In this document: positions 30,036 through 45,235 of the stretch, piece by piece
Numbering within the stretch: position 1 is the first letter of the stretch
How the letters are laid out: the number at the start of each line of letters is the position of its first letter
Source: a virus
Taxonomy: Duplodnaviria; Heunggongvirae; Uroviricota; Caudoviricetes
Length of the DNA: 58,566 nucleotides
Virus record (IMG/VR): IMGVR_UViG_3300043425_000840
Direction: 5' to 3' (one strand)
Translations under genes and position numbers: made by a program
The notes under the pieces: model-generated
The model's input: only the letters and a program-made list of their open reading frames with translations
The model's database searches: none
Told to the model about the DNA's origin: nothing

Positions 30036-31477
30036 GTCACAAATTAGGAATTTGTATCCCTTATCGAAATAGAAAGGAACACATTGAAAGATTAATCCCA
30101 CACTTATCAAAGTACCTAACAAGTCAAAATATTGACCACAAATTTTATGTTGGTCATCAGGTTGATGATAAACTTTTTAATAGAGGTGCTATGAAAAACA
30201 TTGCCGCTCATTACGCATTCAATGATGGATGTGATTACATTGCTTGGCACGATGTTGATATGTTGGTATATGATAAAGATGGTGTATTTGCTGACTATTC
30301 ATATCCTGAAGATAATCCAATGCATATTGCAACTAAATTATCTAAATACAATTATGGATTGGGATATGACCAATACTTTGGTGGTGTTGTTTTATTCACG
30401 AAAGAACAGGCTTATCAAACTAATGGTTACTCAAATGATTATTGGGATTGGGGACAAGAAGATGATGACTTATTTTGGAGATGTTATTTTGAAGGTTTAA
30501 CCACCGGTAAAATCATCCAAAAATATGAAAGTAAAAAGTATGCTAAATTTAACGGAAAAACATCCGCTGTTGAGATACCAACAAGTAGAGAGATAAGTTC
30601 TTGTTTCACATCAGACCATACAATTTCAATATTATTCAATGCGGAACAACAACAAGATGTTGTACCTATTTGGTTAGTTGGTGACCAACAAAATAGATTT
30701 TTAGAATACCCAATATTAAGAAAAGAAGGTATGTGGACTTGGGGTGTTTCATTCAACAACTCAAGAGCAGTATCAATGGTTGTCTTCGACAGAAATAGTC
30801 AACATCATTATTTTTGGGCAAAACGATTTGAGAATTTATGGACTTGGGTAACAATTTCTTACTCACAAGAGGAAAATAAATTGTACCTTTATATTAATGA
30901 TGAATTGGAGAGAAACGTTAGAGGTGTTAGAGAAAAATTACCTTTTGATGCAAAATATGAAATTGCTAGAATGGATGCAGTAAAACCATTTGTTTTAGGT
31001 AATTGTCCTCACCAAAGAACATACTATAAAGGTAAGATTGGTGAAGTGAAAATTTTTAAAAAATGTATCAAACCAAATGAAATCAATCAAGTGTTTACCA
31101 CTACAGAAGATGAAGATTTGGTTTTACATTATGACTTTGAAGATGGATTTACTAACAAGGTAAATGGTTCAATGGCAATTGTTAAAGATTCTATCATTGG
31201 TGAAGAAGATATCGAAATTGTTAAAAACGTTTTACCATTTAGAAAAGAAGGTCAATTCTATTGTTTACCACATATCGATGAGGGGTTTGTAAACGGTAAA
31301 TGGGCTAAAGGTGAAACTACCGCAAGAAATGAAAAACGATTTGTTACCGAAATGCAACAAAAGAAAATAAATTATAGAGATGAGGGTCTTAATAAAATAA
31401 CCGAGGTAACTGAGATTGTTAATTTAGATGAGACGTTGTATCCTAATACAATGTTCATCAACACAAAAATGAAATGA
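30032..31477 (+). CDS. GT7 glycosyltransferase with an inserted LamG domain (paralog)
   Basis: IPYRNR, FNRGAMKN, WHDVDM, YFGGV, GYSNDYWDWGQEDDDL; KFNGKTSAV...YKGKIGEVKIF...LVLHYDF; CLPHIDEG. Confidence 0.85.
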   Translation: MSHKLGICIPYRNRKEHIERLIPHLSKYLTSQNIDHKFYVGHQVDDKLFNRGAMKNIAAHYAFNDGCDYIAWHDVDMLVYDKDGVFADYSYPEDNPMHIATKLSKYNYGLGYDQYFGGVVLFTKEQAYQTNGYSNDYWDWGQEDDDLFWRCYFEGLTTGKIIQKYESKKYAKFNGKTSAVEIPTSREISSCFTSDHTISILFNAEQQQDVVPIWLVGDQQNRFLEYPILRKEGMWTWGVSFNNSRAVSMVVFDRNSQHHYFWAKRFENLWTWVTISYSQEENKLYLYINDELERNVRGVREKLPFDAKYEIARMDAVKPFVLGNCPHQRTYYKGKIGEVKIFKKCIKPNEINQVFTTTEDEDLVLHYDFEDGFTNKVNGSMAIVKDSIIGEEDIEIVKNVLPFRKEGQFYCLPHIDEGFVNGKWAKGETTARNEKRFVTEMQQKKINYRDEGLNKITEVTEIVNLDETLYPNTMFINTKMK

Positions 31478-32892
31478 TAGATTTTAACATAACAAAAGAT
31501 AAATTAAATGGTGTTGGTTGTGGTTTCTGTTTAGCAAAATGGACACAAGTGACAATGCATTTACATAATGGTACAACTCACTCTTGTCACCATCCTTCCC
31601 CACACAAAGTACCTTTAGAAGAGATTGAAAGAAACTATACGGCATTACATAATAGTAATGTTAAAAAGTACGCAAGGAAGGAAATGTTAAATGGTCAACG
31701 ACCAAAGGAGTGTGGCTATTGTTGGAATGTTGAGGATAATTCTAATTCATTTTCAGATAGAATTTTTAAAAGTGCGGAACCTTGGTCCGAACCTTATTTT
31801 GATGAAATATCAAAGTCACATTGGAGAGCAGATTTTAATCCAAAGTATGTTGAGGTAAACTTTTCAAACACTTGTAATTTCAAATGTGCGTATTGTGGTC
31901 CTGAATATTCCACCAAATGGATGGAGGAGATTAATCAGTTCGGTGGATATAAACTATCTTCTGATTATAACAGTACCCAACAAATGGATGAAAATAAAAC
32001 CAGACCATATAAACAAACTGAACATAATCCTTATGTTGCAGCATTTTGGGAATGGTGGCCTGAATTATACACCACATTAGATACCTTCAGAATTACTGGT
32101 GGAGAACCTTTATTATCAAAAGATACTTGGAGAGTATTGGAAAATATTATTGAAACGGAAGAACCCAACCGACAATTGAAACTATCAATCAATAGTAATC
32201 TTGGAGTTAATGATGAATTGATTGATAAATTAATTGTAAAATTAGAAAAGATTATTAGTGAAGAAAGAGTAAAAGAAGTTATTATTTTTACATCCTGTGA
32301 CGCGTATGGTAAACAAGCAGAATATGTTAGATATGGATTAGAATTTGATAGACTATTCAGTAACATTGATAAGATTTTAACAGTCCTACCAAAAGTTACG
32401 ATTGTTATTATGTCAACGTTTAACATATTCAGTATCTTCTCATATGAGTCTTTAATTAAAAAAGTTTATGATTTAAAACTTAAACATTTTAATAAAGAAA
32501 GATATTGGAATTCTGCACTCATATTGGATACATCATATCTAAGATATCCTGACTTTTTAGGGTTCCGAGTATTGAAAGATTATTTGGATGTGGAATATTT
32601 TAATAGGTGTGAGAAGTTTATGAAATTCTATTCAACATATAGAAGTTTAAATTTTTATGAACAACAATCAGTAGACGATGTTGGATTCTCAACCAAGGAG
32701 ATTGAAAAAATAACAAGAATAAAAGAAATATTCATAACAGATTCTAACTCAGACATTTCATTTGAAAAAGAGAAAAAAGATTTTGTTAAGTTTATTGACG
32801 AATATAAAATAAGAAGAGGGATGGATTGTGAAGAATACTATCCTGAATTGACTCAATTTATAAAAAACATCAGAGATGAGAATAAAGTATAA
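31474..32892 (+). CDS. Radical SAM protein with an N-terminal twitch/SPASM-like Cys cluster
   Basis: CGFCLAKW...SCHH, C..CW..E, CNFKCAYC (CxxxCxxC) and ITGGEPLL. Confidence 0.9.
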   Translation: MIDFNITKDKLNGVGCGFCLAKWTQVTMHLHNGTTHSCHHPSPHKVPLEEIERNYTALHNSNVKKYARKEMLNGQRPKECGYCWNVEDNSNSFSDRIFKSAEPWSEPYFDEISKSHWRADFNPKYVEVNFSNTCNFKCAYCGPEYSTKWMEEINQFGGYKLSSDYNSTQQMDENKTRPYKQTEHNPYVAAFWEWWPELYTTLDTFRITGGEPLLSKDTWRVLENIIETEEPNRQLKLSINSNLGVNDELIDKLIVKLEKIISEERVKEVIIFTSCDAYGKQAEYVRYGLEFDRLFSNIDKILTVLPKVTIVIMSTFNIFSIFSYESLIKKVYDLKLKHFNKERYWNSALILDTSYLRYPDFLGFRVLKDYLDVEYFNRCEKFMKFYSTYRSLNFYEQQSVDDVGFSTKEIEKITRIKEIFITDSNSDISFEKEKKDFVKFIDEYKIRRGMDCEEYYPELTQFIKNIRDENKV

Positions 32893-33655: not shown

Positions 33656-35110
33656 ATGTCCGACGAACTAAGAGAATGGAGGAATAAAAATCTAAACTGT
33701 ATTAGTAAAAGTTTCTGTGCTGCTAAGTGGTACAATGCTAGTTTACATTTAGGACACGGATACACAAATTCCTGTCATCTTCCTTTACCACACCCTATTG
33801 ATTTAGAAGAGATTAAAACAAATCCTTCAGCGTTACATAATACTCGACACAAGAAGATTGCAAGAAAGATGATGTTAACAGGTATCAGACCTGCTGAATG
33901 TTCATATTGTTGGAAGATTGAAGATATTGGTCGTGATAACATTTCTGATAGGGTATATAAGAGTTTAATCTATACTGAAGAAGAAATAGCAGCACTTAAA
34001 GAGATTCCTTGGGAAGAAGACATCTTATTAAAAACTGTTGAAGTTAGTTTTGACCGTACTTGTAATTTTGCTTGTAGTTATTGTAACTCAGGTTATAGTA
34101 CAACTTGGGCAAAAGATATCAAAGAGAACGGAGCATATCAAAAGTTCAAAACAAGTAGTGCAGGTGCATATTATGCGGATGGTTCTTGGTCTGAAAAATT
34201 TGGAAAACACAACGAAAATAATCCATACGTACAAGCGTTTTTAGAATGGTGGCCTGAGTTATCAAAAACTTTACAAGAGATTAGAGTTACTGGTGGTGAA
34301 CCATCACAAAGTCGTAACTTTTGGAATTTCATTGATGTGATGAAACAACATCCTTCTGAAAACTTAAGACTTGCAGTTAACTCAAATCTTGGATTAAATG
34401 AAGCTACGTTGTTTAAACTAATTAGTATCTCTCACGAGTTACCAATTAAAGAATTTGATTTGTACACAAGTAATGAATCATTCGGTGTTCACGCTGACTA
34501 TATCAGAGATGGTCTAAAATATGACATTTGGAGAGCTAATATGGTTAAGTTTATTGAGAACGCTAAGTTCCGTTCATTAACCATTATGATGACAATTAAT
34601 AGTCTTTGTTTATTCAGTATAACTGAATTCTTAGATGATATGATAGTATTAAAAGAGAAGTACGGACCAAATAGACCAAACGTTGATTTCAACATCCTAA
34701 GATGGCCGTCATTTATGTCACCATTATCATTACCTGATAATATCAAATCTAAGTTACATCTTAAGTTAAAGAATTGGTATACTGAACATAAAGAGAGTCC
34801 TTTATTTAGTATTCACGAGAAGGCACAAATCGAAAGATTGATTGACTACATTGAAGTTGTTGAAAGAGGTCACAACCAAACAGAATTGGATAAAGACAAA
34901 CAATGGCACGACTTTAAGAGTTTCTACGAACAATATGATGTCAGAAGAAATAAAGATTTCAGAGCAACGTTCAATGACCCTGAACTAATTGAATGGTACG
35001 ATTCAATCAAAGTTGATTATTCAATACCTAATGTTCAAGTTACGGATGGTGCAATAACACACTTCGAACCTGGTGAGTACGTTTCAGATGTTAAACCCAA
35101 TATTATTTAA
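33656..35110 (+). CDS. Radical SAM protein with an N-terminal twitch-like cluster (paralog); C-terminal KPNII
   Basis: FCAAKW...SCH, CSYCW..E, CNFACSYC and VTGGEP. Confidence 0.9.
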   Translation: MSDELREWRNKNLNCISKSFCAAKWYNASLHLGHGYTNSCHLPLPHPIDLEEIKTNPSALHNTRHKKIARKMMLTGIRPAECSYCWKIEDIGRDNISDRVYKSLIYTEEEIAALKEIPWEEDILLKTVEVSFDRTCNFACSYCNSGYSTTWAKDIKENGAYQKFKTSSAGAYYADGSWSEKFGKHNENNPYVQAFLEWWPELSKTLQEIRVTGGEPSQSRNFWNFIDVMKQHPSENLRLAVNSNLGLNEATLFKLISISHELPIKEFDLYTSNESFGVHADYIRDGLKYDIWRANMVKFIENAKFRSLTIMMTINSLCLFSITEFLDDMIVLKEKYGPNRPNVDFNILRWPSFMSPLSLPDNIKSKLHLKLKNWYTEHKESPLFSIHEKAQIERLIDYIEVVERGHNQTELDKDKQWHDFKSFYEQYDVRRNKDFRATFNDPELIEWYDSIKVDYSIPNVQVTDGAITHFEPGEYVSDVKPNII

Positions 35111-37621: not shown

Positions 37622-37649
37622 AAAAAAGGGACTTATAGTCCCTTTTTTT
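37622..37649. terminator. Bidirectional intrinsic terminator between convergent genes
   Basis: AAAAAAGGGACT-tat-AGTCCCTTTTTTT. Confidence 0.9.
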
Positions 37650-38196
37650 ATGCTTCGTAATATAACTCAGGATATTCGACAATAACAGATATCCCACCCT
37701 TTTCATACACCGTTTTGTAGGTCTCTTCGATATCTTTCCACGACTTTAAATCATAGAATTTGATATTAGGACACATCATCTCATATGATGCTAAATAACT
37801 ACCTCTGTGTTGATGTCCTGGGTCTAATGGTTTATCTGACCCCTTACCTAAACGAATAATCATATTAGGATTCCATTCTTGATTACTCATTAGTTTAATC
37901 TTATCTACGTGATTTACTAATTGATTAGTTGCACAAATTAAAAAATCCCATCGAGGATAAAATGTAATCACAGTTTTACCCGCCATAGCCATACCTAAAC
38001 TCATTCCCATTTGTGATTCTTCCATAACAGGAAGTTCAATTAACTTATCTTTTGGAACTTCTCCGATAGTTGTACTCATTGGATTACCGTGCCAAAGGAT
38101 TTGCTGACCCAAGAAGACAGTATCTTCTTGTTGACCAAGGTAAGTCATTGATTTAGTTAAAGCGTCCTTATATGGGGTGTATTGTGGTGAACTCAT
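37648..38196 (-). CDS. TPP-dependent enzyme E1 beta-like subunit (pyrimidine-binding domain only, 182 aa)
   Basis: VFLGQ, IELPVMEESQMGMSLGMAMAG, NQLVN and GHQH. The C-terminal transketolase domain of true PDH E1 beta is absent. Confidence 0.85.
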   Translation of the reverse strand: MSSPQYTPYKDALTKSMTYLGQQEDTVFLGQQILWHGNPMSTTIGEVPKDKLIELPVMEESQMGMSLGMAMAGKTVITFYPRWDFLICATNQLVNHVDKIKLMSNQEWNPNMIIRLGKGSDKPLDPGHQHRGSYLASYEMMCPNIKFYDLKSWKDIEETYKTVYEKGGISVIVEYPELYYEA

Positions 38197-39002
38197 AATG
38201 ATTCTATTTTTTTGATTACTGCGTCTGCAATTATTCTATGACATTTTTTAGATGGGTGAGAATCTTTTGGTGGATGTTCTCCTAATTCGTCAAAATCATC
38301 TCTAACTGTTAAACCATTGTTAAGTCTCATCATATAATCAATATTGGTATATTCAGTACCGTTATAATTTAGATAGACCATTCTGTCGTGTAAATAAGGG
38401 TCTTCCTTAACATACTTAACATAGTCATCCTGCCAATTAAGAATTATACATTTGATACCTTTGCTCTCCAAAAATTCAAACGTCTCTTTAATTTTTTTAA
38501 CTTGTTGTTTACAGTGTTCAACATACCATTCAGGAAATCCACCGATACCATTTTCTTCCATCCACTCAAAGAAGATTCTTTGGATTCCTTGTGACGAACC
38601 AATCCAATTCATTTTGTGTTCATTTCCCTTATGTGTAAATGTAAATGAACATCTACCTGGTTGACTCGTTTGAAAAACCGCATATCCAATTTCTTCGTAT
38701 GAAAATTTTTCTTCAATTAAATGAGTCATTCCATTTTTATTACTAAAAATATAGTCTAAAAAAAATAAAGATTCGTCTTCACTACCACCATTTTCTTTTT
38801 TAACAATTTCAAATGTTTCAAAATGATTGGCAACTAATCTTGGGAATCTTAAAGTCGCCATAAAACGTTTATGTGCGTCTGTTACCAATTTGTGTTCATA
38901 TTGTTCGGGTGCGGGCTCCTTAAGAGTCTCCATTTTTGAATAATAATAAAGACCTTGACCCCAAGTAAATGAACAACCGGCAAATACTATTCCTTTTTTC
39001 AT
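38193..39002 (-). CDS. SGNH-hydrolase-like protein (possible acyl esterase/transferase)
   Basis: VFAGCSFTWG (GxS block), NGGS and DSHP (DxH). Confidence 0.6.
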   Translation of the reverse strand: MKKGIVFAGCSFTWGQGLYYYSKMETLKEPAPEQYEHKLVTDAHKRFMATLRFPRLVANHFETFEIVKKENGGSEDESLFFLDYIFSNKNGMTHLIEEKFSYEEIGYAVFQTSQPGRCSFTFTHKGNEHKMNWIGSSQGIQRIFFEWMEENGIGGFPEWYVEHCKQQVKKIKETFEFLESKGIKCIILNWQDDYVKYVKEDPYLHDRMVYLNYNGTEYTNIDYMMRLNNGLTVRDDFDELGEHPPKDSHPSKKCHRIIADAVIKKIESL

Positions 39003-39976
39003 TAATTAAATTCGTTTTTGTTTTCGTTATACCATTCATAGGCCTTTTCTAAACCTTCTGATAATGAAGTCTTAGCTTCCCAACCTAACTTATCTTTTAT
39101 TTTATTTGAATCAATTTTTCTTGTTGGTATCATTGAAGGTTTACCACTAATGAATTCAGTAGGTGCATCGTAGTTTGCAATTTTCTTCATTTCATCCAAT
39201 ACCTCAAGTACTGAATAAACTTTATTTGAACCAACGTTATATACTTGAAACATTTCAGTTTCATTTTCCATTACAACTTGTAATGACTCAACAAAATCTT
39301 CAACGTAAAGTAAGTCTCTTAATTCAGTACCATCACCCCAAACAGGAATAGGATTTAATTGGTCAGCAACTTTACGAATAGTTGCAGGTGTTACGTGACA
39401 CTTATTGAAATCGTACTTATCGTGAGGGCCAAACAAATTAGCAGGTCTGATGACAGTACATTTCATTGTTCGTGGTAAGTATTTTGCATACAATTCACAT
39501 TGAACCTCAGCATAACGTTTCATCCAACCAACGGGAAAATAAACGGGGTAAGGTTCATCAAATAAGAAATCAGTTTCAACTACTGGTTCATCACCTTTGG
39601 GTGGATACACAGTGTTCGATGAAATAAATACATAATGTTTAACGTTATTTCTCCAAGCCGCATCGATTAAAAAATTGTTCATTGCGACGTTTGGAGTTAC
39701 GTGAGCTAATGGGTCGTTAACCGTATCGACAGCGTTTGAAGTGGATGCTGCACAATGAAAAACAATATCAACATCTTTGGTAATGGTTTTACAACCCTCT
39801 TGTGTTTGTAAATCAGAATACCAATACTCTACGTCCATATGTTTTATTCTTGGTTCTCTAGTGTGTAAAGAAACTCTTATATTGTTGTATCCTTCGGACA
39901 CTAACCTATTTGTTAAGTTTTGCCCAACCAAACCAGAACCACCGGTTATTAAAATTTTTGAATTTTTATTTATCAT
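39002..39976 (-). CDS. NAD-dependent epimerase/reductase, GDP-L-fucose synthase-like extended SDR
   Basis: LITGGSGLVG, VFHCAA, FISS, VGWMK (YxxxK variant), RPANLFGPHD and VWGDGTELRDLLYVED. Confidence 0.85.
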   Translation of the reverse strand: MINKNSKILITGGSGLVGQNLTNRLVSEGYNNIRVSLHTREPRIKHMDVEYWYSDLQTQEGCKTITKDVDIVFHCAASTSNAVDTVNDPLAHVTPNVAMNNFLIDAAWRNNVKHYVFISSNTVYPPKGDEPVVETDFLFDEPYPVYFPVGWMKRYAEVQCELYAKYLPRTMKCTVIRPANLFGPHDKYDFNKCHVTPATIRKVADQLNPIPVWGDGTELRDLLYVEDFVESLQVVMENETEMFQVYNVGSNKVYSVLEVLDEMKKIANYDAPTEFISGKPSMIPTRKIDSNKIKDKLGWEAKTSLSEGLEKAYEWYNENKNEFN

Positions 39977-41745
39977 ATTAAACTTTTTTTAACTTTTTTT
40001 ACATCATTAGTTTGTGGAATCTCAAATGGCTTACCATAACATACGTCACTATCAGGTTCCCACACTTCTTCTATTTTTTCAGTACCATTATATCTTGCAG
40101 GTGGGGAATACGGCCTAACTTGAATGAAATTAATGTATGTAAATCTTCTAAAATCATTCTTAACCATTTCAACTGCGTGATTTGAATTATTTTTTGAGAA
40201 ATCTAACATTGCAAAATTTAAATGAATTGGAAGTACTTCATCATAATACCCTTTATCTTGTAATATTAATTTTCCTCCACCATCAATATAGTCTTTTTCG
40301 TCTGATAAGTAAATTAATACCACACAATATCTATCAGGATTTTGACCATCAATATGAGGTTCAATAAAATCACCATTTTCATAAATTGTTAACCCATCGT
40401 TGTGCCCAATATTCCATTCTTTTACTTCAGGATATATCTTATGAACAAATCTTGATACCTTATCTCTAAAATAGAATATATCATCATTGAAAATTCCTTC
40501 ACTATCTCTCAACTCCCACCAACGTTGAACAATGTCCCAACCTTTTTCCGCTGCGAATTTTTCTCTTTCTTCTATCTCATCTGCGGGAATTGTCCTAACA
40601 TAATCAAATCCTTCTTCGGAGTAGTCCGTCGGCACTCTAAATTCAAAACGATATCCATAACCTTTCTTATCTTCAGACTTTTTTCTAATATTTTCTAATC
40701 TTTTTAGATAATCATCCCACTCGTGTTTTTTTATAAATTCTTGAACCTTACCAACATAAAATCCCTTTTCAAGATACTCTTCAATATCCATATTCAATTC
40801 AAGTGTACCATAGTGTTTTTCATAGTAACTATATGTTCTTCTAAGTGCTTCCTTAAATCCTACAAAAGGTAATAGTTGATAACCGTTCTGAAGACTGGTA
40901 TCCATTTGTCTACGCATATCTCCGTTTGGTTTTGACTTATCCCATTTAATGGTTAAATTTTTACCACTAATTTTAATAACCTCCTCAATCATTGATTGAA
41001 TTGTTATTGTTTCACCAGAACCTAAATTAACTACGTCATTCACTCTATTCTTGTAACAATTTAAAATAGCAACTGCAACGTCATTGGCATAAATGAAATC
41101 TCTAACAGGTGTACCATCTCCCCAAGCTTCAATCTCACCACCATCCTCGGCTTCATATACTTTCTTAATTATACTTGAGATTACAGTACCATTACCACTC
41201 CAATCATCATACTCACCAAATATGTTCGCGGGTCTAACAATGGTCCATTTTTTATAACCATATTGTTTTCTATATGCACCTACCAATAACTCACCAATTC
41301 TTTTTGACCAAGCAGGAAACCAATCATTTTCAGAAGGTAATGTCTTCCATACATCAGTCTCTAAGAATTTTTCAGCGGGAGAGTAAACACCAACAGAACT
41401 TACAAAAACTAACCAAACGTTATTTTTTGCACATTGGTGAATTATTTCGGTATTGATTTTTTGTGATGGATATAGAAAGTCCACCGGTTGAGTTTTAGCT
41501 TTTAATGGTGAACCCTTAACACCGAAGCAGTTGAATACCGCATCTGGTTTTTCCTCCTCAAATAATTTTGTAATGTTCTCATCATTCATAAGGTCTAATT
41601 CATAAAACTTAAACCTATCAGATTCTGGTAAATGTTCCGATTTAACTTTGTCAACACCAATAACTAAATGGTTTCTCATAATCGATTCCTTAACCAAATG
41701 AACACCGACTAAACCTGAACAACCTGTAATTAAAATTTTTTTCAT
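39973..41745 (-). CDS. Fusion of a GDP-fucose-synthase-like SDR (aa 1-318) and a 2OG-Fe(II) oxygenase; C-terminal KKSLI
   Basis: ITGCSGLVG, RPANIFGEYD, WGDGTPVRDFIY; from Met319 (40791): IEPHIDG, VVLIYLS..GGG.L, NHAV and RFTY. Confidence 0.8.
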   Translation of the reverse strand: MKKILITGCSGLVGVHLVKESIMRNHLVIGVDKVKSEHLPESDRFKFYELDLMNDENITKLFEEEKPDAVFNCFGVKGSPLKAKTQPVDFLYPSQKINTEIIHQCAKNNVWLVFVSSVGVYSPAEKFLETDVWKTLPSENDWFPAWSKRIGELLVGAYRKQYGYKKWTIVRPANIFGEYDDWSGNGTVISSIIKKVYEAEDGGEIEAWGDGTPVRDFIYANDVAVAILNCYKNRVNDVVNLGSGETITIQSMIEEVIKISGKNLTIKWDKSKPNGDMRRQMDTSLQNGYQLLPFVGFKEALRRTYSYYEKHYGTLELNMDIEEYLEKGFYVGKVQEFIKKHEWDDYLKRLENIRKKSEDKKGYGYRFEFRVPTDYSEEGFDYVRTIPADEIEEREKFAAEKGWDIVQRWWELRDSEGIFNDDIFYFRDKVSRFVHKIYPEVKEWNIGHNDGLTIYENGDFIEPHIDGQNPDRYCVVLIYLSDEKDYIDGGGKLILQDKGYYDEVLPIHLNFAMLDFSKNNSNHAVEMVKNDFRRFTYINFIQVRPYSPPARYNGTEKIEEVWEPDSDVCYGKPFEIPQTNDVKKVKKSLI

Positions 41746-43029
41746 TTATTTTTTCTTATTTTCGATTAGTGATGTGAAAAATTCCACATCATCTTTGTTA
41801 TTTAATAATTCCAGTACTAACTTTTTATTATTTTCAAATCTATCTTTTAGGTTGATGTAATTTGAAATGAACTTGTCTTTATTTTTATATATTCTCTTTA
41901 TCTCATCAAACAATTTGAATAATCGTTTTCTTTGGTCAGATTCAGAATCATATGAATGGTCTAATATATCATCGAACACGTCAAAACCATAAACGTCTTT
42001 TACAGTTTTTACGTGATTCATACTTGCAACATAAAGTGGGTATTGATTAAAGAAAAGAGGTTTGAATGTTTTCTCACTTAAATGGACAACATTATCCCTC
42101 TTAAAACAAGATTCCGTAGTTATGTTAACGTATGAGTTCTCATATGTTTGCTTCTCATAAACTCGATTCCACTCAATGTGAAACGGAAGACTCTTTACGT
42201 GACTATCCCAATCTTTATCAAACCAATCAATATTATCTTCGTATCTACTTTTTTTAATGTCAATCTCCTCAAAAAAATCAATCTCAGATTTCATTTTTTG
42301 AATTTCTTTTTCTGTAAATAATTCGTGATAAAAAGTGGTTATAGTTGTGTGTTTCATATCCATTTTATGATTCCACCCCATCACCAAAGACCAATCAACT
42401 TCTTGTAACAATTTGTTCTTTTTAAGTAAAACTAAAAGAGCATACCTATGAACTTTTGGAGTCCTATTATGTGAAACAAAAAATTCAGATTGTTTATCTG
42501 TTATAAAATCGGTATCGTACATATCTAACTCCTTAGCAACTTTAATTGGTAAGAACTTAATGGTATGAACATTCAAACTTAAATTGTTATCCTCTTTGTA
42601 CTTCTTTAAATTATAATTGTTATTAATAACATATATCTGTTTTGGGTCGATTCCTTTATCTATCACCCACTTCTCAATTCCAATAACGGTTTCTTCAGTT
42701 TCCACCTCGTGCTCATTTAAAAAAATAACATAGAGGTTTGGATTTTCTTTCAAATGTTTAATTACCTTGGTTGGTAATGGTAATATGTTATGAGCTTTTA
42801 ATGCGTGACCAATCTCGTGAATATGACCAATAACATAATAGAAATTTTCATCAGGATGATTTTTAATCTCTGTTAACCTAAATCTTTTGAAATTTTTAAA
42901 TTCATAAAAATTCATCAACCCATCAATCCTCCTGAAATTATTTGCACCGAATTCCTTCTCACCGTTAATATTTGGATGAGTTGCATTGTGGTGCCAATCG
43001 TCATATACTAAATTTAAAAAATTACCCAT
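41746..43029 (-). CDS. Putative GT-B glycosyltransferase (SEK family paralog)
   Basis: FVSHNRTPKVHR, YVNITTES, LSEKTFKPL...YP, YGFDVFDDILDHSYD. Confidence 0.6.
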   Translation of the reverse strand: MGNFLNLVYDDWHHNATHPNINGEKEFGANNFRRIDGLMNFYEFKNFKRFRLTEIKNHPDENFYYVIGHIHEIGHALKAHNILPLPTKVIKHLKENPNLYVIFLNEHEVETEETVIGIEKWVIDKGIDPKQIYVINNNYNLKKYKEDNNLSLNVHTIKFLPIKVAKELDMYDTDFITDKQSEFFVSHNRTPKVHRYALLVLLKKNKLLQEVDWSLVMGWNHKMDMKHTTITTFYHELFTEKEIQKMKSEIDFFEEIDIKKSRYEDNIDWFDKDWDSHVKSLPFHIEWNRVYEKQTYENSYVNITTESCFKRDNVVHLSEKTFKPLFFNQYPLYVASMNHVKTVKDVYGFDVFDDILDHSYDSESDQRKRLFKLFDEIKRIYKNKDKFISNYINLKDRFENNKKLVLELLNNKDDVEFFTSLIENKKK

Positions 43030-43646
43030 TTACCTGTTCCGTAGTGCGGCCATTGTTTAATATAATTATACCAAATCACACCCTCAGGTGCTTCAGTTTT
43101 TACTTTCCAAGTTTCAATTGTTGGAGTGTTTGTTGATACACCATTATCCTCAACCACAAATTGAATTGGGAGGTCAAAGTTCTTAGCGTATTTGTAGTTT
43201 TCCATAAAACCACCAGTCTCGAAAGCCATATCACCAACGAAACACCACACCTTATCTTTACTACCTTGTTGTTTCAAAGCCATAGCAACACCAACAGCAA
43301 TTGGAATTGTACCACCAACAATTGCGGATGAATAAAACTTCTCGTCTTTATTCACAATTGTAATTGACCTACCAGCTAATATCTCCTCTTCTAACCATTC
43401 AGAAGGTACACCTTTTAACAATGCGTGATAATGAGACCTCCAAGTTGAGAATACCCAATCTGTTGTTTTAACTCTTTTGAAAATTTCAATTAGTTCATCT
43501 TCATTTCCACCACTTAAGTGAATCGGTCCACGAACTCTACCAGCTTCCCAATGGTCAGCCATTTTTCTTTCAAATTGTATAAGTCCTTCTTTATCCCACA
43601 ACATCTCCCTAACAATTGGTAGATGGTCATCTAAATTTTTTATCAT
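43014..43646 (-). CDS. TPP-dependent enzyme E1 alpha-like subunit (short, 210 aa)
   Basis: GPIHLSGGNE, STWRSHYHAL, IVGGTIPIAVGVA, FVGDM (GDG variant)...VVEDNG (TPP motif). Confidence 0.85.
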   Translation of the reverse strand: MIKNLDDHLPIVREMLWDKEGLIQFERKMADHWEAGRVRGPIHLSGGNEDELIEIFKRVKTTDWVFSTWRSHYHALLKGVPSEWLEEEILAGRSITIVNKDEKFYSSAIVGGTIPIAVGVAMALKQQGSKDKVWCFVGDMAFETGGFMENYKYAKNFDLPIQFVVEDNGVSTNTPTIETWKVKTEAPEGVIWYNYIKQWPHYGTGKWVIF

Positions 43647-44188
43647 CTGTCTCTTTTTTGTAATATTGGTTTATCTGTTGGCCATTCCATTTGATACTCA
43701 GGGTCATTCCATTTAACTACACCTTGTTCATTTGCGTCTACATAACCATCTTTATAGAATAGATTATAATGAAACATACAATCAGTTAGTGCGTAATGTC
43801 CGTTTGCAAAACCTGGTGGAACTAATACTTGGTTTCTATCTTTCTCAGTTATCATAAACGACTCCCAATCACCATATGTCGGTGATGATGGTCTCATATC
43901 TAACACAACCAAGTAAATGTCACCAACAGCCGCCTGAACTAATTTCCAAGTTTTAGTATCGTAATGTAATCCTCTTAGAACACCCTTATATGATTTTGAA
44001 AATCTTCCGTGAATTGAGATTTCACTTTTATCATAGTGAATATGTTTCATCACAGGATGTTCTTCACTATGAAATGTTGTAAAAATTTCACCTCTATATT
44101 CTCTATAAATCGAAGGTGTGAAAATTGGTACTTCATAACCAAAAACTTTTGATGGAGTTTCAACAAACTCATCCCATTTATTACTCAT
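43643..44188 (-). CDS. rmlC: dTDP-4-dehydrorhamnose 3,5-epimerase (RmlC/cupin family)
   Basis: YRGEIF, SYKGVLRGLHY, KLVQ..GDIY.V.LDMR..SPTYG.W, VPPGFANGH and WNDP. Confidence 0.85.
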   Translation of the reverse strand: MSNKWDEFVETPSKVFGYEVPIFTPSIYREYRGEIFTTFHSEEHPVMKHIHYDKSEISIHGRFSKSYKGVLRGLHYDTKTWKLVQAAVGDIYLVVLDMRPSSPTYGDWESFMITEKDRNQVLVPPGFANGHYALTDCMFHYNLFYKDGYVDANEQGVVKWNDPEYQMEWPTDKPILQKRDR

Positions 44189-44189
44189 A

Positions 44190-45158
44190 TTATGTATTGT
44201 TTGCGTATCCTAATGGGAATCCATTTCTAAATTCCGATGTCATTTTTGGTATTAGTACTTGGTATGTTTTCATCAGTTCTTTAATACCATCATCCAAAGA
44301 CCACTTTGGTTTCCATCCCGTCTTTTCAATCTTTTCATTTGAAACTATGTAATCTCTTTTGTCCGGGTCTTCATAGAAGTCAGAGTAAGTGATTGCAAAA
44401 TCAGGAATGTATAATTTTATTTTTTCTAATAATTCTTGTTTACTTAAGTTAGCGTCACTTAACCCGACATTGTAAACGTTCTCTTTCATTGTTTCATAAT
44501 TTTCGAGAGCGAATGTAAACACATCACCAACATCTTGAATATGAATGAAGTTACGTTTGAAATGTTTTTCAAATACAACAATGTATTTGTCGGTCATTGC
44601 TTTATAAACAAACTCATTTACCAACAAATCAGTTCTCATTCTTGGAGAAGAACCAAATACGGTTGCTAATCTAAAACAAGTTGCATTGGTGTAATTAAGT
44701 AAATGTCTTTCCGCGGCGCATTTAGTTTCACCATATACCGATATCGGATTCAATGGTGATTCTTCAGTACAAAACTTATCATCTTTACCAACACCATATC
44801 CACTATTTGTGTTTGGATAGATAATCATTTGATTTGGACTAATGAAGTTCATCAAATTAATGATTTGGTTATAGTTGATTTGTGTTGCTAATTCAGGGTC
44901 TTTTTTACAAGCAGGGAACCCGACAATTGCTGCTAATGGAATTATAACATCGTGAGATTTAACTTCCCTTTCGAACAGGGTTAGGTTTCTAACATCACCA
45001 TAAATGAAGTTATAATTTGGATTGTAAGTAAATTGGAGTGGGGAAATCTGATTGAACAATAATGTGTCAATTACGGTCACTTTATGACCCAAATCGAGTA
45101 GTTTTTTTGTTATCACTGAACCTAAGTATCCTGCACCTCCTGTGATTAAAATTTTCAT
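44190..45158 (-). CDS. NAD-dependent nucleotide-sugar epimerase/dehydratase
   Basis: MKILITGGAGYLGS, IPLAAIVG, YGETK (YxxxK), FRLATVFG.SPRMR.DL. The ATG at 45158 is preferred to the track start at 45200. Confidence 0.9.
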   Translation of the reverse strand: MKILITGGAGYLGSVITKKLLDLGHKVTVIDTLLFNQISPLQFTYNPNYNFIYGDVRNLTLFEREVKSHDVIIPLAAIVGFPACKKDPELATQINYNQIINLMNFISPNQMIIYPNTNSGYGVGKDDKFCTEESPLNPISVYGETKCAAERHLLNYTNATCFRLATVFGSSPRMRTDLLVNEFVYKAMTDKYIVVFEKHFKRNFIHIQDVGDVFTFALENYETMKENVYNVGLSDANLSKQELLEKIKLYIPDFAITYSDFYEDPDKRDYIVSNEKIEKTGWKPKWSLDDGIKELMKTYQVLIPKMTSEFRNGFPLGYANNT

Positions 45159-45169
45159 ATCTGTAAACA

Positions 45170-45235
45170 CTAATTTAAATAATTTTTTATCAATAGTCAA
45201 CCACTTTAAATTTAAGAAAAAATTTTTTATATTTA
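45170..45235. promoter_or_regulatory. Back-to-back Bacteroidota-type promoters
   Basis: Minus: GTTG(45201-45198)-N20-TAAATTAG(45177-45170). Plus: TTTA(45205-45208)-N19-TATATTTA(45228-45235). Confidence 0.45.

What the first reader, a model, noticed from the sequence alone, without database searches (positions are those of the whole stretch)
37648..45158. Split, truncated PDH-E1-like TPP enzyme inside a nucleotide-sugar cassette: branched-chain sugar synthesis
Seen: E1 alpha-like (210 aa) and E1 beta-like (182 aa, no C-terminal domain) genes lie in one co-oriented block with RmlC, three SDR domains, a GT-like and an SGNH-like gene. No E2 or E3 is present. Established: TPP enzymes transfer a C2 unit from pyruvate to a 4-keto nucleotide sugar to make branched sugars (YerE for yersiniose A; the PDH alpha/beta-like AviB1/AviB2 are proposed for eurekanate in avilamycin). 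Inference: dehydratase, then epimerase, then TPP C2 transfer, then reductase gives a rare C-branched sugar donor. An annotation pipeline would miscall this as a central-metabolism auxiliary gene.
Basis: partly seen in the sequence, partly recalled or inferred. Interest (0 to 1): 0.75.

Follow-up and report, generated by a model that had tools for sequence, protein, structure and literature searches.

The report
Minimal split thiamine enzyme, phage sugar operon
A giant uncultured aquatic phage carries two very short genes that together make a stripped-down thiamine-dependent enzyme. They sit in an operon that tailors a GDP-activated seven-carbon sugar, so the phage probably builds a rare carbon-branched sugar rather than running central metabolism.

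Summary
On the minus strand, 45158-37648 is one eight-gene operon containing a 210-aa E1-alpha-like ThDP-binding half and a 182-aa E1-beta-like half.

**What supports an active enzyme**
- Both halves keep the cofactor and catalytic residues.
- They are predicted to bind each other.
- They co-occur in 74 of 80 related phage loci and are fused into one protein in cyanophages S-SM2 and P-TIM68.
- Complete related phage genomes have no E2, lipoyl domain or transketolase C-domain.

- The first enzyme is not a 4,6-dehydratase. It is 65% identical to PDB 6VO6, which I recall as Cj1427, the GDP-heptose C4 dehydrogenase.
- The epimerase is nearest the Campylobacter GDP-4-keto-heptose epimerases, so the sugar is probably a GDP-heptose or GDP-mannose.

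**Context in distant relatives**
There alpha and beta sit beside a Cj1427-like enzyme again, with a ColD-like 3-dehydratase and heptose-activation genes. No C4 reductase is present.

**Best reading (about 0.5)**
The pair adds a C2 unit from pyruvate to the C4 keto group. This matches the actinomycete E1-type sugar branchers, but in a new minimal, mostly phage-borne form. Chemistry is untested.

First readers of this scan noted the same cassette on other genomes.

The parts
44190..45158 (-). Cj1427-like NAD-dependent sugar-nucleotide C4 dehydrogenase (extended SDR; the ORF can be read from TTG 45200, but the likely start is ATG 45158)
   Evidence: PDB 6VO6/6VO8 at E 6e-115, about 65% identity over 303 residues; the next hit is 2e-28. 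Canonical YxxxK at residues 156-160. That 6VO6 is Cj1427 is my own knowledge, not a tool result. Cj1427's function is taken from PMC10680097.
43643..44188 (-). RmlC-fold C3/C5 epimerase of the GDP-4-keto-heptose type
   Evidence: Best PDB hits are the C. jejuni enzymes DdahB/MlghB (7ANG, 7AN4), 7M14 and 8DCL/8DCO at about 1e-35. dTDP RmlC scores 1e-23. PDB codes checked in PMC7949155.
43014..43646 (-). alpha: minimal E1-alpha-like ThDP diphosphate-binding (PP) domain, 210 aa
   Evidence: Pfam and NCBIfam hits. AlphaFold model pLDDT 95.3; best match human PDH E1-alpha 1NI4_A, Z 20.3, rmsd 2.2 A, 195 residues aligned. Conserved H43, R70, G138-D139, E166, N168 and H201.
41746..43029 (-). GT-B fold glycosyltransferase of a phage-only family; a member of this family directly follows alpha in about half of the related loci (39 of 80)
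   Evidence: No Pfam hit. Model pLDDT 91.6. All top fold matches are GT-B glycosyltransferases, including GDP-dependent fucosyl- and mannosyltransferases, Z 8-11.7. Family present in 65 of 80 loci.
39973..41745 (-). Fusion of a GDP-fucose-synthase-like SDR domain (residues 1-311) with a 2OG-Fe(II) oxygenase domain (residues 452-541)
   Evidence: No conserved catalytic Tyr at the usual SDR position.
39002..39976 (-). GDP-fucose-synthase-like SDR, a candidate keto-reductase
   Evidence: NCBIfam GDPFucSynFcl 6e-42, below its cut-off. PDB GDP-fucose synthetase 1e-31. Y-x6-K in place of YxxxK.
38193..39002 (-). Probable SGNH/GDSL-type esterase or acyltransferase (a lead only)
   Evidence: No Pfam hit. 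Nearest Atlas clusters are viral and carry DUF6071 or Lipase_GDSL on 10-18% of members.
37648..38196 (-). beta: minimal E1-beta-like pyrimidine-binding (Pyr) domain, 182 aa, with no C-terminal E2-binding domain
   Evidence: Invariant E59 (cofactor-activating Glu), H96, D98, K99 and H130, which aligns with human E1-beta His128. Predicted to bind alpha.
37622..37648 (-). Terminator-like hairpin directly after beta, between convergent genes
   Evidence: 12-bp stem followed by a T run.
45172..45200 (-). Promoter-like site in the divergent gap upstream of the operon (weak consensus match only)
   Evidence: TTGACT-17-TAAATT, 9 of 12 matches. Promoter-like sites are not enriched over shuffled sequence in this region.

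Best explanation
The 210-aa and 182-aa genes encode the two halves (PP domain and Pyr domain) of a minimal heteromeric E1-type thiamine-diphosphate enzyme. It has lost everything needed to dock onto a 2-oxoacid dehydrogenase complex, and it works as a carboligase inside a GDP-sugar tailoring operon.

**Proposed sequence**
1. The host supplies GDP-D-glycero-D-manno-heptose, or GDP-mannose.
2. The Cj1427-like dehydrogenase oxidises C4.
3. The RmlC-like enzyme epimerises C3 and/or C5.
4. Alpha-beta decarboxylates a 2-oxo acid, most likely pyruvate. It adds the ThDP-bound C2 carbanion to the C4 carbonyl. The product is a 4-C-acetyl sugar with a tertiary alcohol at C4.
5. The fucose-synthase-like SDRs, the 2OG oxygenase domain and the SGNH protein trim the product.
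6. The GT-B enzyme transfers it to an unknown acceptor. Neighbouring genes suggest virion fibres.

**Shown here**
- Domain identities and retained catalytic residues.
- Linkage, fusion and predicted binding of alpha and beta.
- Absence of E2, lipoyl domain and Transketolase_C in complete relatives.
- Recurrent pairing with a Cj1427-like enzyme.
- Absence of a C4 reductase in the minimal modules.

**Inferred**
The substrate, the donor, the reaction type, the branch position and the acceptor.
For: **1. The active site is intact.**
- The GD-x27-EDN Mg/ThDP motif aligns with human E1-alpha GDG...ENN.
- In beta, E59 and H130 are invariant.
- In alpha, H201 is invariant. The model aligns 6-206 to residues 20-268 of human PDH E1-alpha, and 1-206 to residues 33-296 of BCKDH E1-alpha. 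H201 therefore falls at the catalytic alpha-His263 / alpha-His291.

**2. Alpha and beta work together.**
- Both are present in 74 of 80 phage loci, always on the same strand with beta downstream.
- They form natural ~400-aa fusions in S-SM2 and P-TIM68 and in metagenomic proteins.
- Complex prediction scored 0.86 against a best control of 0.00. That mark was reached by 58 of 80 solved complexes and 2 of 110 mismatched pairs. The three runs agree in at least 98% of contacts, and partner pLDDT is 88. The interface uses the cofactor-site helices. This pass may partly reflect likeness to solved E1 structures.

**3. It is not a dehydrogenase-complex E1.**
- NCBIfam scores are 91 against a cut-off of 394, and 37 against 321.
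- No E2, lipoyl domain or Transketolase_C occurs in two complete related phage genomes.

**4. A keto-sugar source sits next door.**
- SDR336 is 65% identical to 6VO6.
- The epimerase is of the GDP-4-keto-heptose type.
- The simplest relatives carry only SDR, epimerase, alpha and beta, with no reductase within 10 kb.

**5. A second, independent gene order points the same way.**
- Distant relatives (41-60% identity) have alpha and beta followed by a GHMP kinase and a ColD-like 3-dehydratase, often a B12 radical-SAM gene, and then a Cj1427-like SDR. The dehydratase has the SFYxAHH motif and matches PDB ColD at 1e-45; the SDR matches 6VO6 at 1e-92.
- An NTP-transferase/HAD fusion is often nearby, and again there is no C4 reductase.
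- Cj1427 plus a C3-dehydratase is known to give GDP-3-deoxy-4-keto-heptose (PMC10680097). That is the close analogue of YerE's substrate (PMC9306805).

**6. Precedent.** E1-type alphaKADH2 enzymes add C2 branches from pyruvate to keto sugars (PMC12247030).
Against: - No activity data exist for any member of this minimal family.
- The known sugar-branching E1 pairs are full length, and at least the paulomycin and avilamycin pairs are proposed to act after glycosyl transfer, not on the NDP-sugar.
- I could not obtain their sequences, so relatedness to them is untested.
- The cyanophage fusions lack a Cj1427-like gene and an RmlC gene and sit beside a Zn-dependent alcohol dehydrogenase instead. 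The acceptor may differ there.
- Three distant loci also carry a YerE/ALS-type ThDP enzyme, which could be the real branching enzyme in those loci.
- This phage lineage encodes no nucleotidyltransferase or GmhA, so the supply of GDP-heptose depends on an unknown host.
- That PDB 6VO6 is Cj1427 rests on my memory.
Confidence: 0.5

Rival explanations
1. Chain extension instead of branching. As DXP synthase does, alpha-beta adds the pyruvate-derived C2 unit to a terminal sugar aldehyde (C6 or C7, made by an alcohol dehydrogenase). The result is a higher-carbon octose or nonose.
For: In cyanophages S-SM2 and P-TIM68 and in L170/L171, the gene next to alpha is a Zn-dependent alcohol dehydrogenase, and no Cj1427-like gene is present. 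Many family members also hit the DXP_synthase_N model. DXS is the second-best structural class, Z 15.2.
Against: The window's lineage and the ColD-type operons have no Zn-ADH, but they do have a C4 dehydrogenase with no matching C4 reductase. The fold is closer to E1-alpha than to DXS (Z 20.3 against 15.2).
Confidence: 0.15
2. Transketolase-type chemistry. Either a minimal transketolase supplies sedoheptulose 7-phosphate to the heptose pathway, or it transfers a hydroxyacetyl unit to a keto sugar, as proposed for miharamycin and amipurimycin.
For: Cyanophage copies are annotated 'transketolase central region'. GmhA, heptose kinase and nucleotidyltransferase genes neighbour alpha-beta in distant relatives. 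A split transketolase (6YAK) matches at Z 15.1. Transketolases are proposed as sugar branchers.
Against: There is no Transketolase_N hit and no transketolase C-domain. E1-alpha matches clearly better. The window's lineage keeps alpha-beta although it has no GmhA or nucleotidyltransferase, so supplying sedoheptulose phosphate cannot be the conserved role.
Confidence: 0.1
3. Other ThDP chemistry on the sugar. Examples: a different 2-oxo acid donor such as 2-oxoglutarate (already needed by the Cj1427-type enzyme and the 2OG oxygenases), decarboxylation of a keto-acid sugar, or C-C cleavage next to the 4-keto group.
For: The operon is rich in enzymes that use 2-oxoglutarate. YerE relatives use long functionalised keto acids rather than pyruvate. 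Nothing in the sequence fixes the donor.
Against: Characterised E1-type sugar branchers are limited to C2 units from pyruvate. No keto-acid sugar synthase was seen in the operon.
Confidence: 0.15
4. A genuine auxiliary central-metabolism gene: a 2-oxoacid dehydrogenase E1 that uses the host's E2 and E3.
For: Source annotation reads 'pyruvate dehydrogenase E1 component alpha subunit'. Both histidines used by true E1 enzymes for reductive acylation are kept.
Against: It lacks the beta C-terminal domain and about 95 C-terminal residues of alpha. Scores fall far below the equivalog cut-offs. Complete relatives have no E2 or lipoyl domain. The pair is always embedded in sugar operons.
Confidence: 0.03
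5. Decayed, non-functional remnants of an E1 operon.
For: Both proteins are far shorter than E1 subunits, and in this window four genes separate them.
Against: About 131 clusters at 50% identity share the same short length, with conserved catalytic residues. The models are very confident. One homologue carries an intein exactly at the ThDP motif.
Confidence: 0.02

Closest known systems
alphaKADH2-type (E1 alpha/beta) ThDP enzymes that put C2 acetyl branches on keto sugars of actinomycete antibiotics: AviB1/AviB2, Pau11/Pau12, the aldgamycin pair, KbDH-alpha/beta
   Same: A two-subunit E1-type ThDP enzyme with no E2 or E3. It is encoded among sugar-tailoring genes that create a ring ketone and near reductases. 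A non-haem iron oxygenase is also implicated in avilamycin (AviO2).
   Different: Those subunits are full length (Pau11 325 aa, Pau12 345 aa); these are 210 and 182 aa with no beta C-domain. Those use dTDP-deoxyhexose chemistry in Gram-positive secondary metabolism, and some are thought to act after glycosyl transfer. This one sits in a GDP-heptose-type context and is mostly in tailed phages. Sequence relatedness is not tested.
Campylobacter jejuni capsular heptose modification pathway (Cj1427 C4 dehydrogenase, Cj1430/MlghB/DdahB epimerases, Cj1428-type C4 reductases, HS:5 C3-dehydratase)
   Same: The first enzyme is 65% identical to PDB 6VO6. The epimerase's best solved relatives are these enzymes. 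Fucose-synthase-like SDRs are present. Distant relatives add a ColD-like C3-dehydratase and HddA/HddC/GmhA/GmhB-type genes.
   Different: No ThDP enzyme is mentioned in the reviewed Campylobacter pathways. The minimal phage modules have alpha-beta where Campylobacter has a C4 reductase.
YerE and YerE-like enzymes (yersiniose, erwiniose, gastriose)
   Same: The proposed reaction is the same: a ThDP-bound acyl anion from a 2-oxo acid adds to the C4 ketone of a nucleotide 4-keto sugar.
   Different: YerE is a single-chain acetolactate-synthase-type enzyme (TPP_enzyme_N/M/C). The phage enzyme has an E1 fold and two subunits. Such an ALS-type gene lies beside alpha-beta in three distant loci.
Heterotetrameric pyruvate and branched-chain 2-oxoacid dehydrogenase E1
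   Same: Best sequence and structural match (Z 20.3 and 19.0). Same cofactor motif, catalytic Glu and two histidines.
   Different: The phage pair lacks the alpha C-terminal region and the beta C-terminal domain. It has no E2, E3 or lipoyl partners, scores far below family cut-offs, and has a different genomic context.

Membership tests
2-oxoacid dehydrogenase complex E1 (heterotetrameric PDH/BCKDH) | Alpha subunit with a ThDP/Mg-binding motif and an E1-alpha fold | tested here: met
   GD-x27-EDN aligned to human GDG...ENN. 1NI4_A Z 20.3, rmsd 2.2 A, 195 aligned.
2-oxoacid dehydrogenase complex E1 (heterotetrameric PDH/BCKDH) | Beta subunit with the Pyr domain plus the C-terminal (Transketolase_C) domain that docks E2 | tested here: not met
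   The Pyr domain alone fills all 182 aa. There is no PF02780 match in four related phage records, two of them complete.
2-oxoacid dehydrogenase complex E1 (heterotetrameric PDH/BCKDH) | E2 with lipoyl domains available in the same genome | tested here: not met
   No PF00198 or PF00364 match in complete relatives G003 and G004. The window's own genome is not held, and host E2 cannot be excluded.
2-oxoacid dehydrogenase complex E1 (heterotetrameric PDH/BCKDH) | Reaches the curated family score | tested here: not met
   TIGR03182 91 bits against a cut-off of 394. PRK09212 37 bits against 321.
E1-type (alphaKADH2) sugar C-branching enzymes | E1 alpha/beta heteromer | tested here: met
   Co-occurrence in 74 of 80 loci, natural fusions, and complex score 0.86 against a best control of 0.00. 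The binding is predicted, not measured.
E1-type (alphaKADH2) sugar C-branching enzymes | Encoded with enzymes that generate a keto sugar | tested here: met
   A Cj1427-like C4 dehydrogenase is adjacent in two different gene orders.
E1-type (alphaKADH2) sugar C-branching enzymes | Groups by sequence with AviB1, Pau11 or KbDH-alpha | not tested
   Those sequences could not be fetched with the tools available. The lengths differ (325/345 aa against 210/182 aa).
E1-type (alphaKADH2) sugar C-branching enzymes | Pyruvate-dependent addition of a C2 unit to a ketone | not testable with these tools
   Needs an enzyme assay.
YerE-type ThDP flavoenzymes | Single chain with TPP_enzyme_N, M and C domains | tested here: not met
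   Only a partial TPP_enzyme_C match (the shared cofactor motif), and no N or M domain.
Transketolase (including split forms) | Transketolase_N-type PP domain and a transketolase C-domain | tested here: inconclusive
   No Transketolase_N hit and no C-domain. The fold match to split transketolase 6YAK is real but weaker than to E1-alpha (Z 15.1 against 20.3).
Cj1427-type GDP-heptose C4 dehydrogenase (for the 44190-45158 gene) | Close sequence identity to the solved enzyme, with an intact SDR catalytic motif | tested here: met
   E 6e-115, about 65% identity over 303 residues. Y156/K160 present. The entry's identity as Cj1427 is from memory.
Cj1427-type GDP-heptose C4 dehydrogenase (for the 44190-45158 gene) | Ping-pong oxidation of GDP-heptose with 2-oxoglutarate as oxidant | not testable with these tools
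   Function described in PMC10680097. Not assayed for the phage enzyme.

The most novel reading that the evidence does not exclude
Tailed phages of lakes and oceans, including the cultured cyanophages S-SM2 and P-TIM68, make a so far undescribed C-branched (4-C-acetyl or hydroxyethyl) heptose on GDP. They do so with the smallest known E1-type ThDP enzyme, about 390 residues in total. In the giant-phage lineage, the alpha and beta genes act as fixed bookends between which glycosyltransferase and tailoring genes are swapped, which diversifies the glycan displayed by the phage.
Probability: 0.35. Interest if true: 0.8.

Novelty: new variant of a known kind. Interest (0 to 1): 0.68.

Why it matters
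**For enzymology.** ThDP-dependent C-branching of sugars is known from a few bacterial O-antigens and from actinomycete antibiotics. The E1-type version has no solved structure (PMC12247030). If the reading here is right, it would yield a naturally minimised, highly conserved E1-type carboligase core. It would also be a new branched higher-carbon sugar.

**For annotation.** The family is very abundant in aquatic metagenomes: thousands of hits, about 131 clusters at 50% identity, mostly viral. It is currently labelled pyruvate dehydrogenase or transketolase, which inflates counts of 'central-metabolism' auxiliary genes in phages.

**For testing.** It occurs in two cultured cyanophages, so it can be tested directly.

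Tried and rejected
- **Nucleotide search.** Searching the cassette against the phage collection found nothing. Protein search was needed.
- **Own genome.** It is not held, so absences are shown only in relatives.
- **Genome-contig scan.** It gave four hits, three of them on short contigs (1.8-3.7 kb). All lie inside MAGs or a single-cell genome and look like phage DNA, so they say little about cellular distribution.
- **Context of distant representatives.** Three contig look-ups returned mostly very short contigs.
- **Papers not held.** The Cj1427 structure and function papers and the AviB1/AviB2 paper are not held. A text search for '6VO6' found nothing relevant. The link from 6VO6 to Cj1427 therefore stays knowledge-based.
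- **Literature on the phage genes.** A search for cyanophage + heptose + transketolase found nothing on these genes.
- **Glycosyltransferase model.** Foldseek against the PDB gave no match at E <= 0.001. The exhaustive aligner then showed only GT-B folds.
- **Corrected assumption.** I first assumed the alpha truncation removes the catalytic histidine of E1-alpha. The structural alignment ranges show the opposite, so I dropped that argument.
- **Rejected identity.** Phosphonopyruvate or sulfopyruvate decarboxylase-type enzymes belong to a different ThDP superfamily, with TPP_enzyme_N/C architecture not seen here.
- **No phylogeny.** I built no tree against canonical E1 and the antibiotic-cluster E1 pairs, because the latter sequences were out of reach.

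Full report
**What the window is.** GC content is about 32%. Genes are tightly packed and mostly on the plus strand, with virion-protein hits upstream and about 30 kb of tailoring enzymes. The nearest held record is an IMG/VR phage contig whose alpha copy is 99% identical. Related contigs reach 335-344 kb, and one is rated complete. So this is an uncultured giant tailed phage, not a cell. The window's own genome is not held.

**The observation.** From 45158 to 37648 on the minus strand there are eight co-oriented genes with 0-4 bp gaps or overlaps:
- an SDR;
- an RmlC-like epimerase;
- an E1-alpha-like protein of 210 aa;
- a 427-aa protein;
- an SDR fused to a 2OG-Fe(II) oxygenase (590 aa);
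- a second fucose-synthase-like SDR (324 aa);
- a 269-aa protein;
- an E1-beta-like protein of 182 aa.

A strong hairpin follows beta. The first gene most likely begins at ATG 45158. The 427-aa protein folds confidently (pLDDT 91.6) as a GT-B glycosyltransferase. The 269-aa protein has only SGNH/GDSL leads.

**The two short proteins form a complete, minimal E1-type active site.**
- Alpha aligns to human E1-alpha through the HL..G.E diphosphate-binding motif and through the GD-x27-EDN Mg/ThDP motif.
- Across 56 diverse family members, H43, G119, F136, L159 and H201 are invariant. R70, G138, D139, E166 and N168 are nearly invariant.
- The AlphaFold model (pLDDT 95.3) matches human PDH E1-alpha best: Z 20.3, rmsd 2.2 A, 195 residues, model 6-206 on chain 20-268. 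Next is BCKDH E1-alpha: Z 19.0, model 1-206 on chain 33-296. These lie ahead of DXP synthase (Z 15.2), a split transketolase (Z 15.1) and transketolases (Z 13.8).
- Those ranges place the invariant C-terminal P-H-x-G histidine (H201) at alpha-His263 / alpha-His291, the catalytic histidine of true E1 enzymes. The protein ends a few residues later. It therefore lacks about 95 C-terminal residues and several internal loops.
- Beta keeps the cofactor-activating glutamate (E59) and H130, which aligns with human E1-beta His128. It stops where the E2-docking C-terminal domain would begin.

**Alpha and beta belong together.**
- In 80 related phage loci both are present in 74, on the same strand with beta downstream.
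- Single ~400-aa alpha-beta fusions exist in Synechococcus phage S-SM2, Prochlorococcus phage P-TIM68 and metagenomic proteins.
- A complex prediction with family alignments scored 0.86 in three runs, against a best control of 0.00. That mark was reached by 58 of 80 solved complexes and 2 of 110 mismatched pairs. The runs agree in at least 98% of contacts, and partner pLDDT is 88.
- The interface is formed by alpha 112-127 and 146-153 and by beta 56-74 and 91-96, the helices that build the cofactor pocket.
- Because E1 heterotetramers are solved, this pass shows likeness and is not independent proof of binding.

**It is not a dehydrogenase-complex component.**
- Scores are far below the curated PDH E1 cut-offs.
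- Two complete related genomes (335,630 bp and 237,307 bp) have no E2 catalytic domain, no lipoyl domain and no Transketolase_C domain. All control genomes gave hits for the lipoyl and Transketolase_C domains, and 10 of 14 did for E2.
- The family is discrete. A full-library search found 131 clusters at E <= 1e-30, and all of the best 150 were about 200 aa, fragments, or ~400-aa fusions.
- The nearest Atlas clusters are 80-100% viral, with a few bacterial ones.
- One homologue carries an intein inserted exactly in front of the GD motif.

**The surrounding chemistry is of the GDP-heptose type, not dTDP-deoxyhexose.**
- The first SDR matches PDB 6VO6/6VO8 at E 6e-115, about 65% identity; the next hit is 2e-28. 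From my own knowledge, this entry is Cj1427 of Campylobacter jejuni.
- According to PMC10680097, Cj1427 is a ping-pong dehydrogenase. It oxidises GDP-D-glycero-D-manno-heptose at C4 and uses 2-oxoglutarate to re-oxidise its bound NADH.
- The epimerase's best solved relatives are the C. jejuni GDP-4-keto-heptose C3/C5 epimerases at 1e-35, against 1e-23 for dTDP RmlC.
- The other two SDR domains are GDP-fucose-synthase-like.
- The first step is therefore a C4 oxidation without 6-deoxygenation, and the nucleotide is most likely GDP.
- This phage lineage has no nucleotidyltransferase or GmhA, so the starting sugar must come from the host.

**Gene order in relatives.**
- In the window's lineage the order is: Cj1427-like SDR, epimerase, alpha, then 0 to 12 variable genes, then beta. 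The variable genes are GT-B paralogues, fucose-synthase-like SDRs, 2OG oxygenases and SGNH-like proteins.
- The simplest loci are just SDR, epimerase, alpha and beta, with no other SDR within 10 kb.
- In more distant relatives (41-60% identity, 45 loci of at least 6 kb), alpha and beta are usually adjacent. A recurrent operon there runs as follows:
  - alpha and beta;
  - a GHMP kinase;
  - a ColD-like PLP 3-dehydratase (His-for-Lys motif SFYxAHH; PDB ColD 1e-45);
  - often a B12 radical-SAM enzyme;
  - a Cj1427-like SDR (6VO6, 1e-92);
  - often a nucleotidyltransferase-phosphatase fusion and a GmhA-like isomerase nearby.
- Those compact operons again contain a 4-keto-forming enzyme but no C4 reductase.
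- Cj1427 plus the HS:5 C3-dehydratase yields GDP-3-deoxy-4-keto-heptose. That is a close analogue of the CDP-3,6-dideoxy-4-keto-glucose on which YerE installs the yersiniose branch.

**Most likely mechanism.** Alpha-beta takes the place that a C4 reductase holds in Campylobacter. It decarboxylates a 2-oxo acid and adds the ThDP-bound carbanion to the C4 carbonyl. Pyruvate is the likely donor, by analogy with the E1-type 'alphaKADH2' sugar branchers: genetics for aldgamycin, and in vitro work for KbDH-alpha/beta (PMC12247030). The product would be a 4-C-acetyl tertiary alcohol, which later enzymes reduce, oxidise or acylate before the GT-B enzyme transfers it. I put this at about 0.5. Only the parts list, the residue conservation, the linkage and the context are shown. 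The reaction, donor, position and acceptor are inferred.

**Rivals.**
- The cyanophage fusions sit beside a Zn-dependent alcohol dehydrogenase and ADP/GDP-heptose synthesis genes, with no Cj1427-like or RmlC gene. There a DXS-like extension of a terminal aldehyde is as plausible as branching.
- Transketolase-type ketol transfer, other donors such as 2-oxoglutarate, and other ThDP reactions cannot be excluded.
- Three distant loci also hold a YerE/ALS-type ThDP enzyme.
- A true E1 using host E2, or a decayed remnant, are both unlikely for the reasons given above.

**Comparison with known systems.** It works most like the actinomycete E1-type sugar branchers, but those are full length (325/345 aa) and act in dTDP-deoxyhexose pathways. 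It is embedded in a pathway most like the Campylobacter capsular heptose modification system, for which the review I read names no ThDP enzyme. I therefore file it as a new variant of a known kind: a minimal, mostly phage-borne E1-type ThDP enzyme tied to GDP-4-keto-heptose chemistry. I did not test whether it belongs by sequence to the antibiotic-cluster enzymes.

**Earlier notes of this scan.** First readers flagged the same cassette on several other genomes with the same idea. One note about a His-for-Lys PLP enzyme next to an E1-alpha gave me the lead that I tested. Notes on this genome place the operon in a large enzyme island next to fibre genes. I did not test the virion-glycosylation idea.

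Noticed in passing
L011-L090 (IMG/VR loci), e.g. L043, L045 against L013, L064: Alpha and beta act as fixed bookends. The number of genes between them ranges from 0 to about 12 (GT-B paralogues, SDRs, 2OG oxygenases, SGNH-like proteins). The junction looks like a hot spot for cassette insertion and exchange.
   Followed up: partly
P0134 (metagenomic alpha homologue); also P0179: P0134 carries a roughly 350-aa intein inserted exactly in front of the GD(M) ThDP/Mg motif. P0179 has a LAGLIDADG domain N-terminal to the alpha part.
   Followed up: partly
window 39973-41745 and 39002-39976 (minus strand): Both fucose-synthase-like SDR domains lack the canonical YxxxK. The 324-aa family conserves Y-x6-K around a G-W-M-K-R motif. 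The SDR half of the 590-aa fusion has no conserved Tyr there (W-x-K-R). They may not be ordinary reductases.
   Followed up: partly
L100, L103, L159: A full-length acetolactate-synthase/YerE-type ThDP enzyme (TPP_enzyme_N/M/C, about 560-600 aa) lies next to the alpha-beta pair. That puts two different ThDP enzymes in one sugar cluster.
   Followed up: no
P0207: An N-terminal APH-type kinase domain is fused to the alpha domain (552 aa).
   Followed up: no
L008 (Pelagibacterales MAG contig, 23 kb), L010 (Pelagibacteraceae single-cell genome AG-333-A04, 3.7 kb), L007, L009: Copies of the cassette or of alpha lie on contigs assigned to SAR11-type and other genomes. This could be mis-binning, or for the single-cell genome a hint at the host of related phages.
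   Followed up: no
L094 (LR756501.1, 735-kb uncultured phage): Here beta lies about 1.1 kb upstream of alpha, the reverse order, with an SDR 5 kb downstream. The pairing survives rearrangement.
   Followed up: no
window 39973-41745, C-terminus: The 590-aa fusion ends in K-K-S-L-I. This fits the shared C-terminal K-x-[L/I]-I tail that earlier notes of this scan reported for neighbouring enzymes.
   Followed up: no
L114, L120, L132, L138, L140 and others: B12-binding radical-SAM enzymes (about 500 aa) accompany alpha-beta in 21 of 45 distant loci. The window itself has two weak radical-SAM genes at 31474-32892 and 33656-35110.
   Followed up: no
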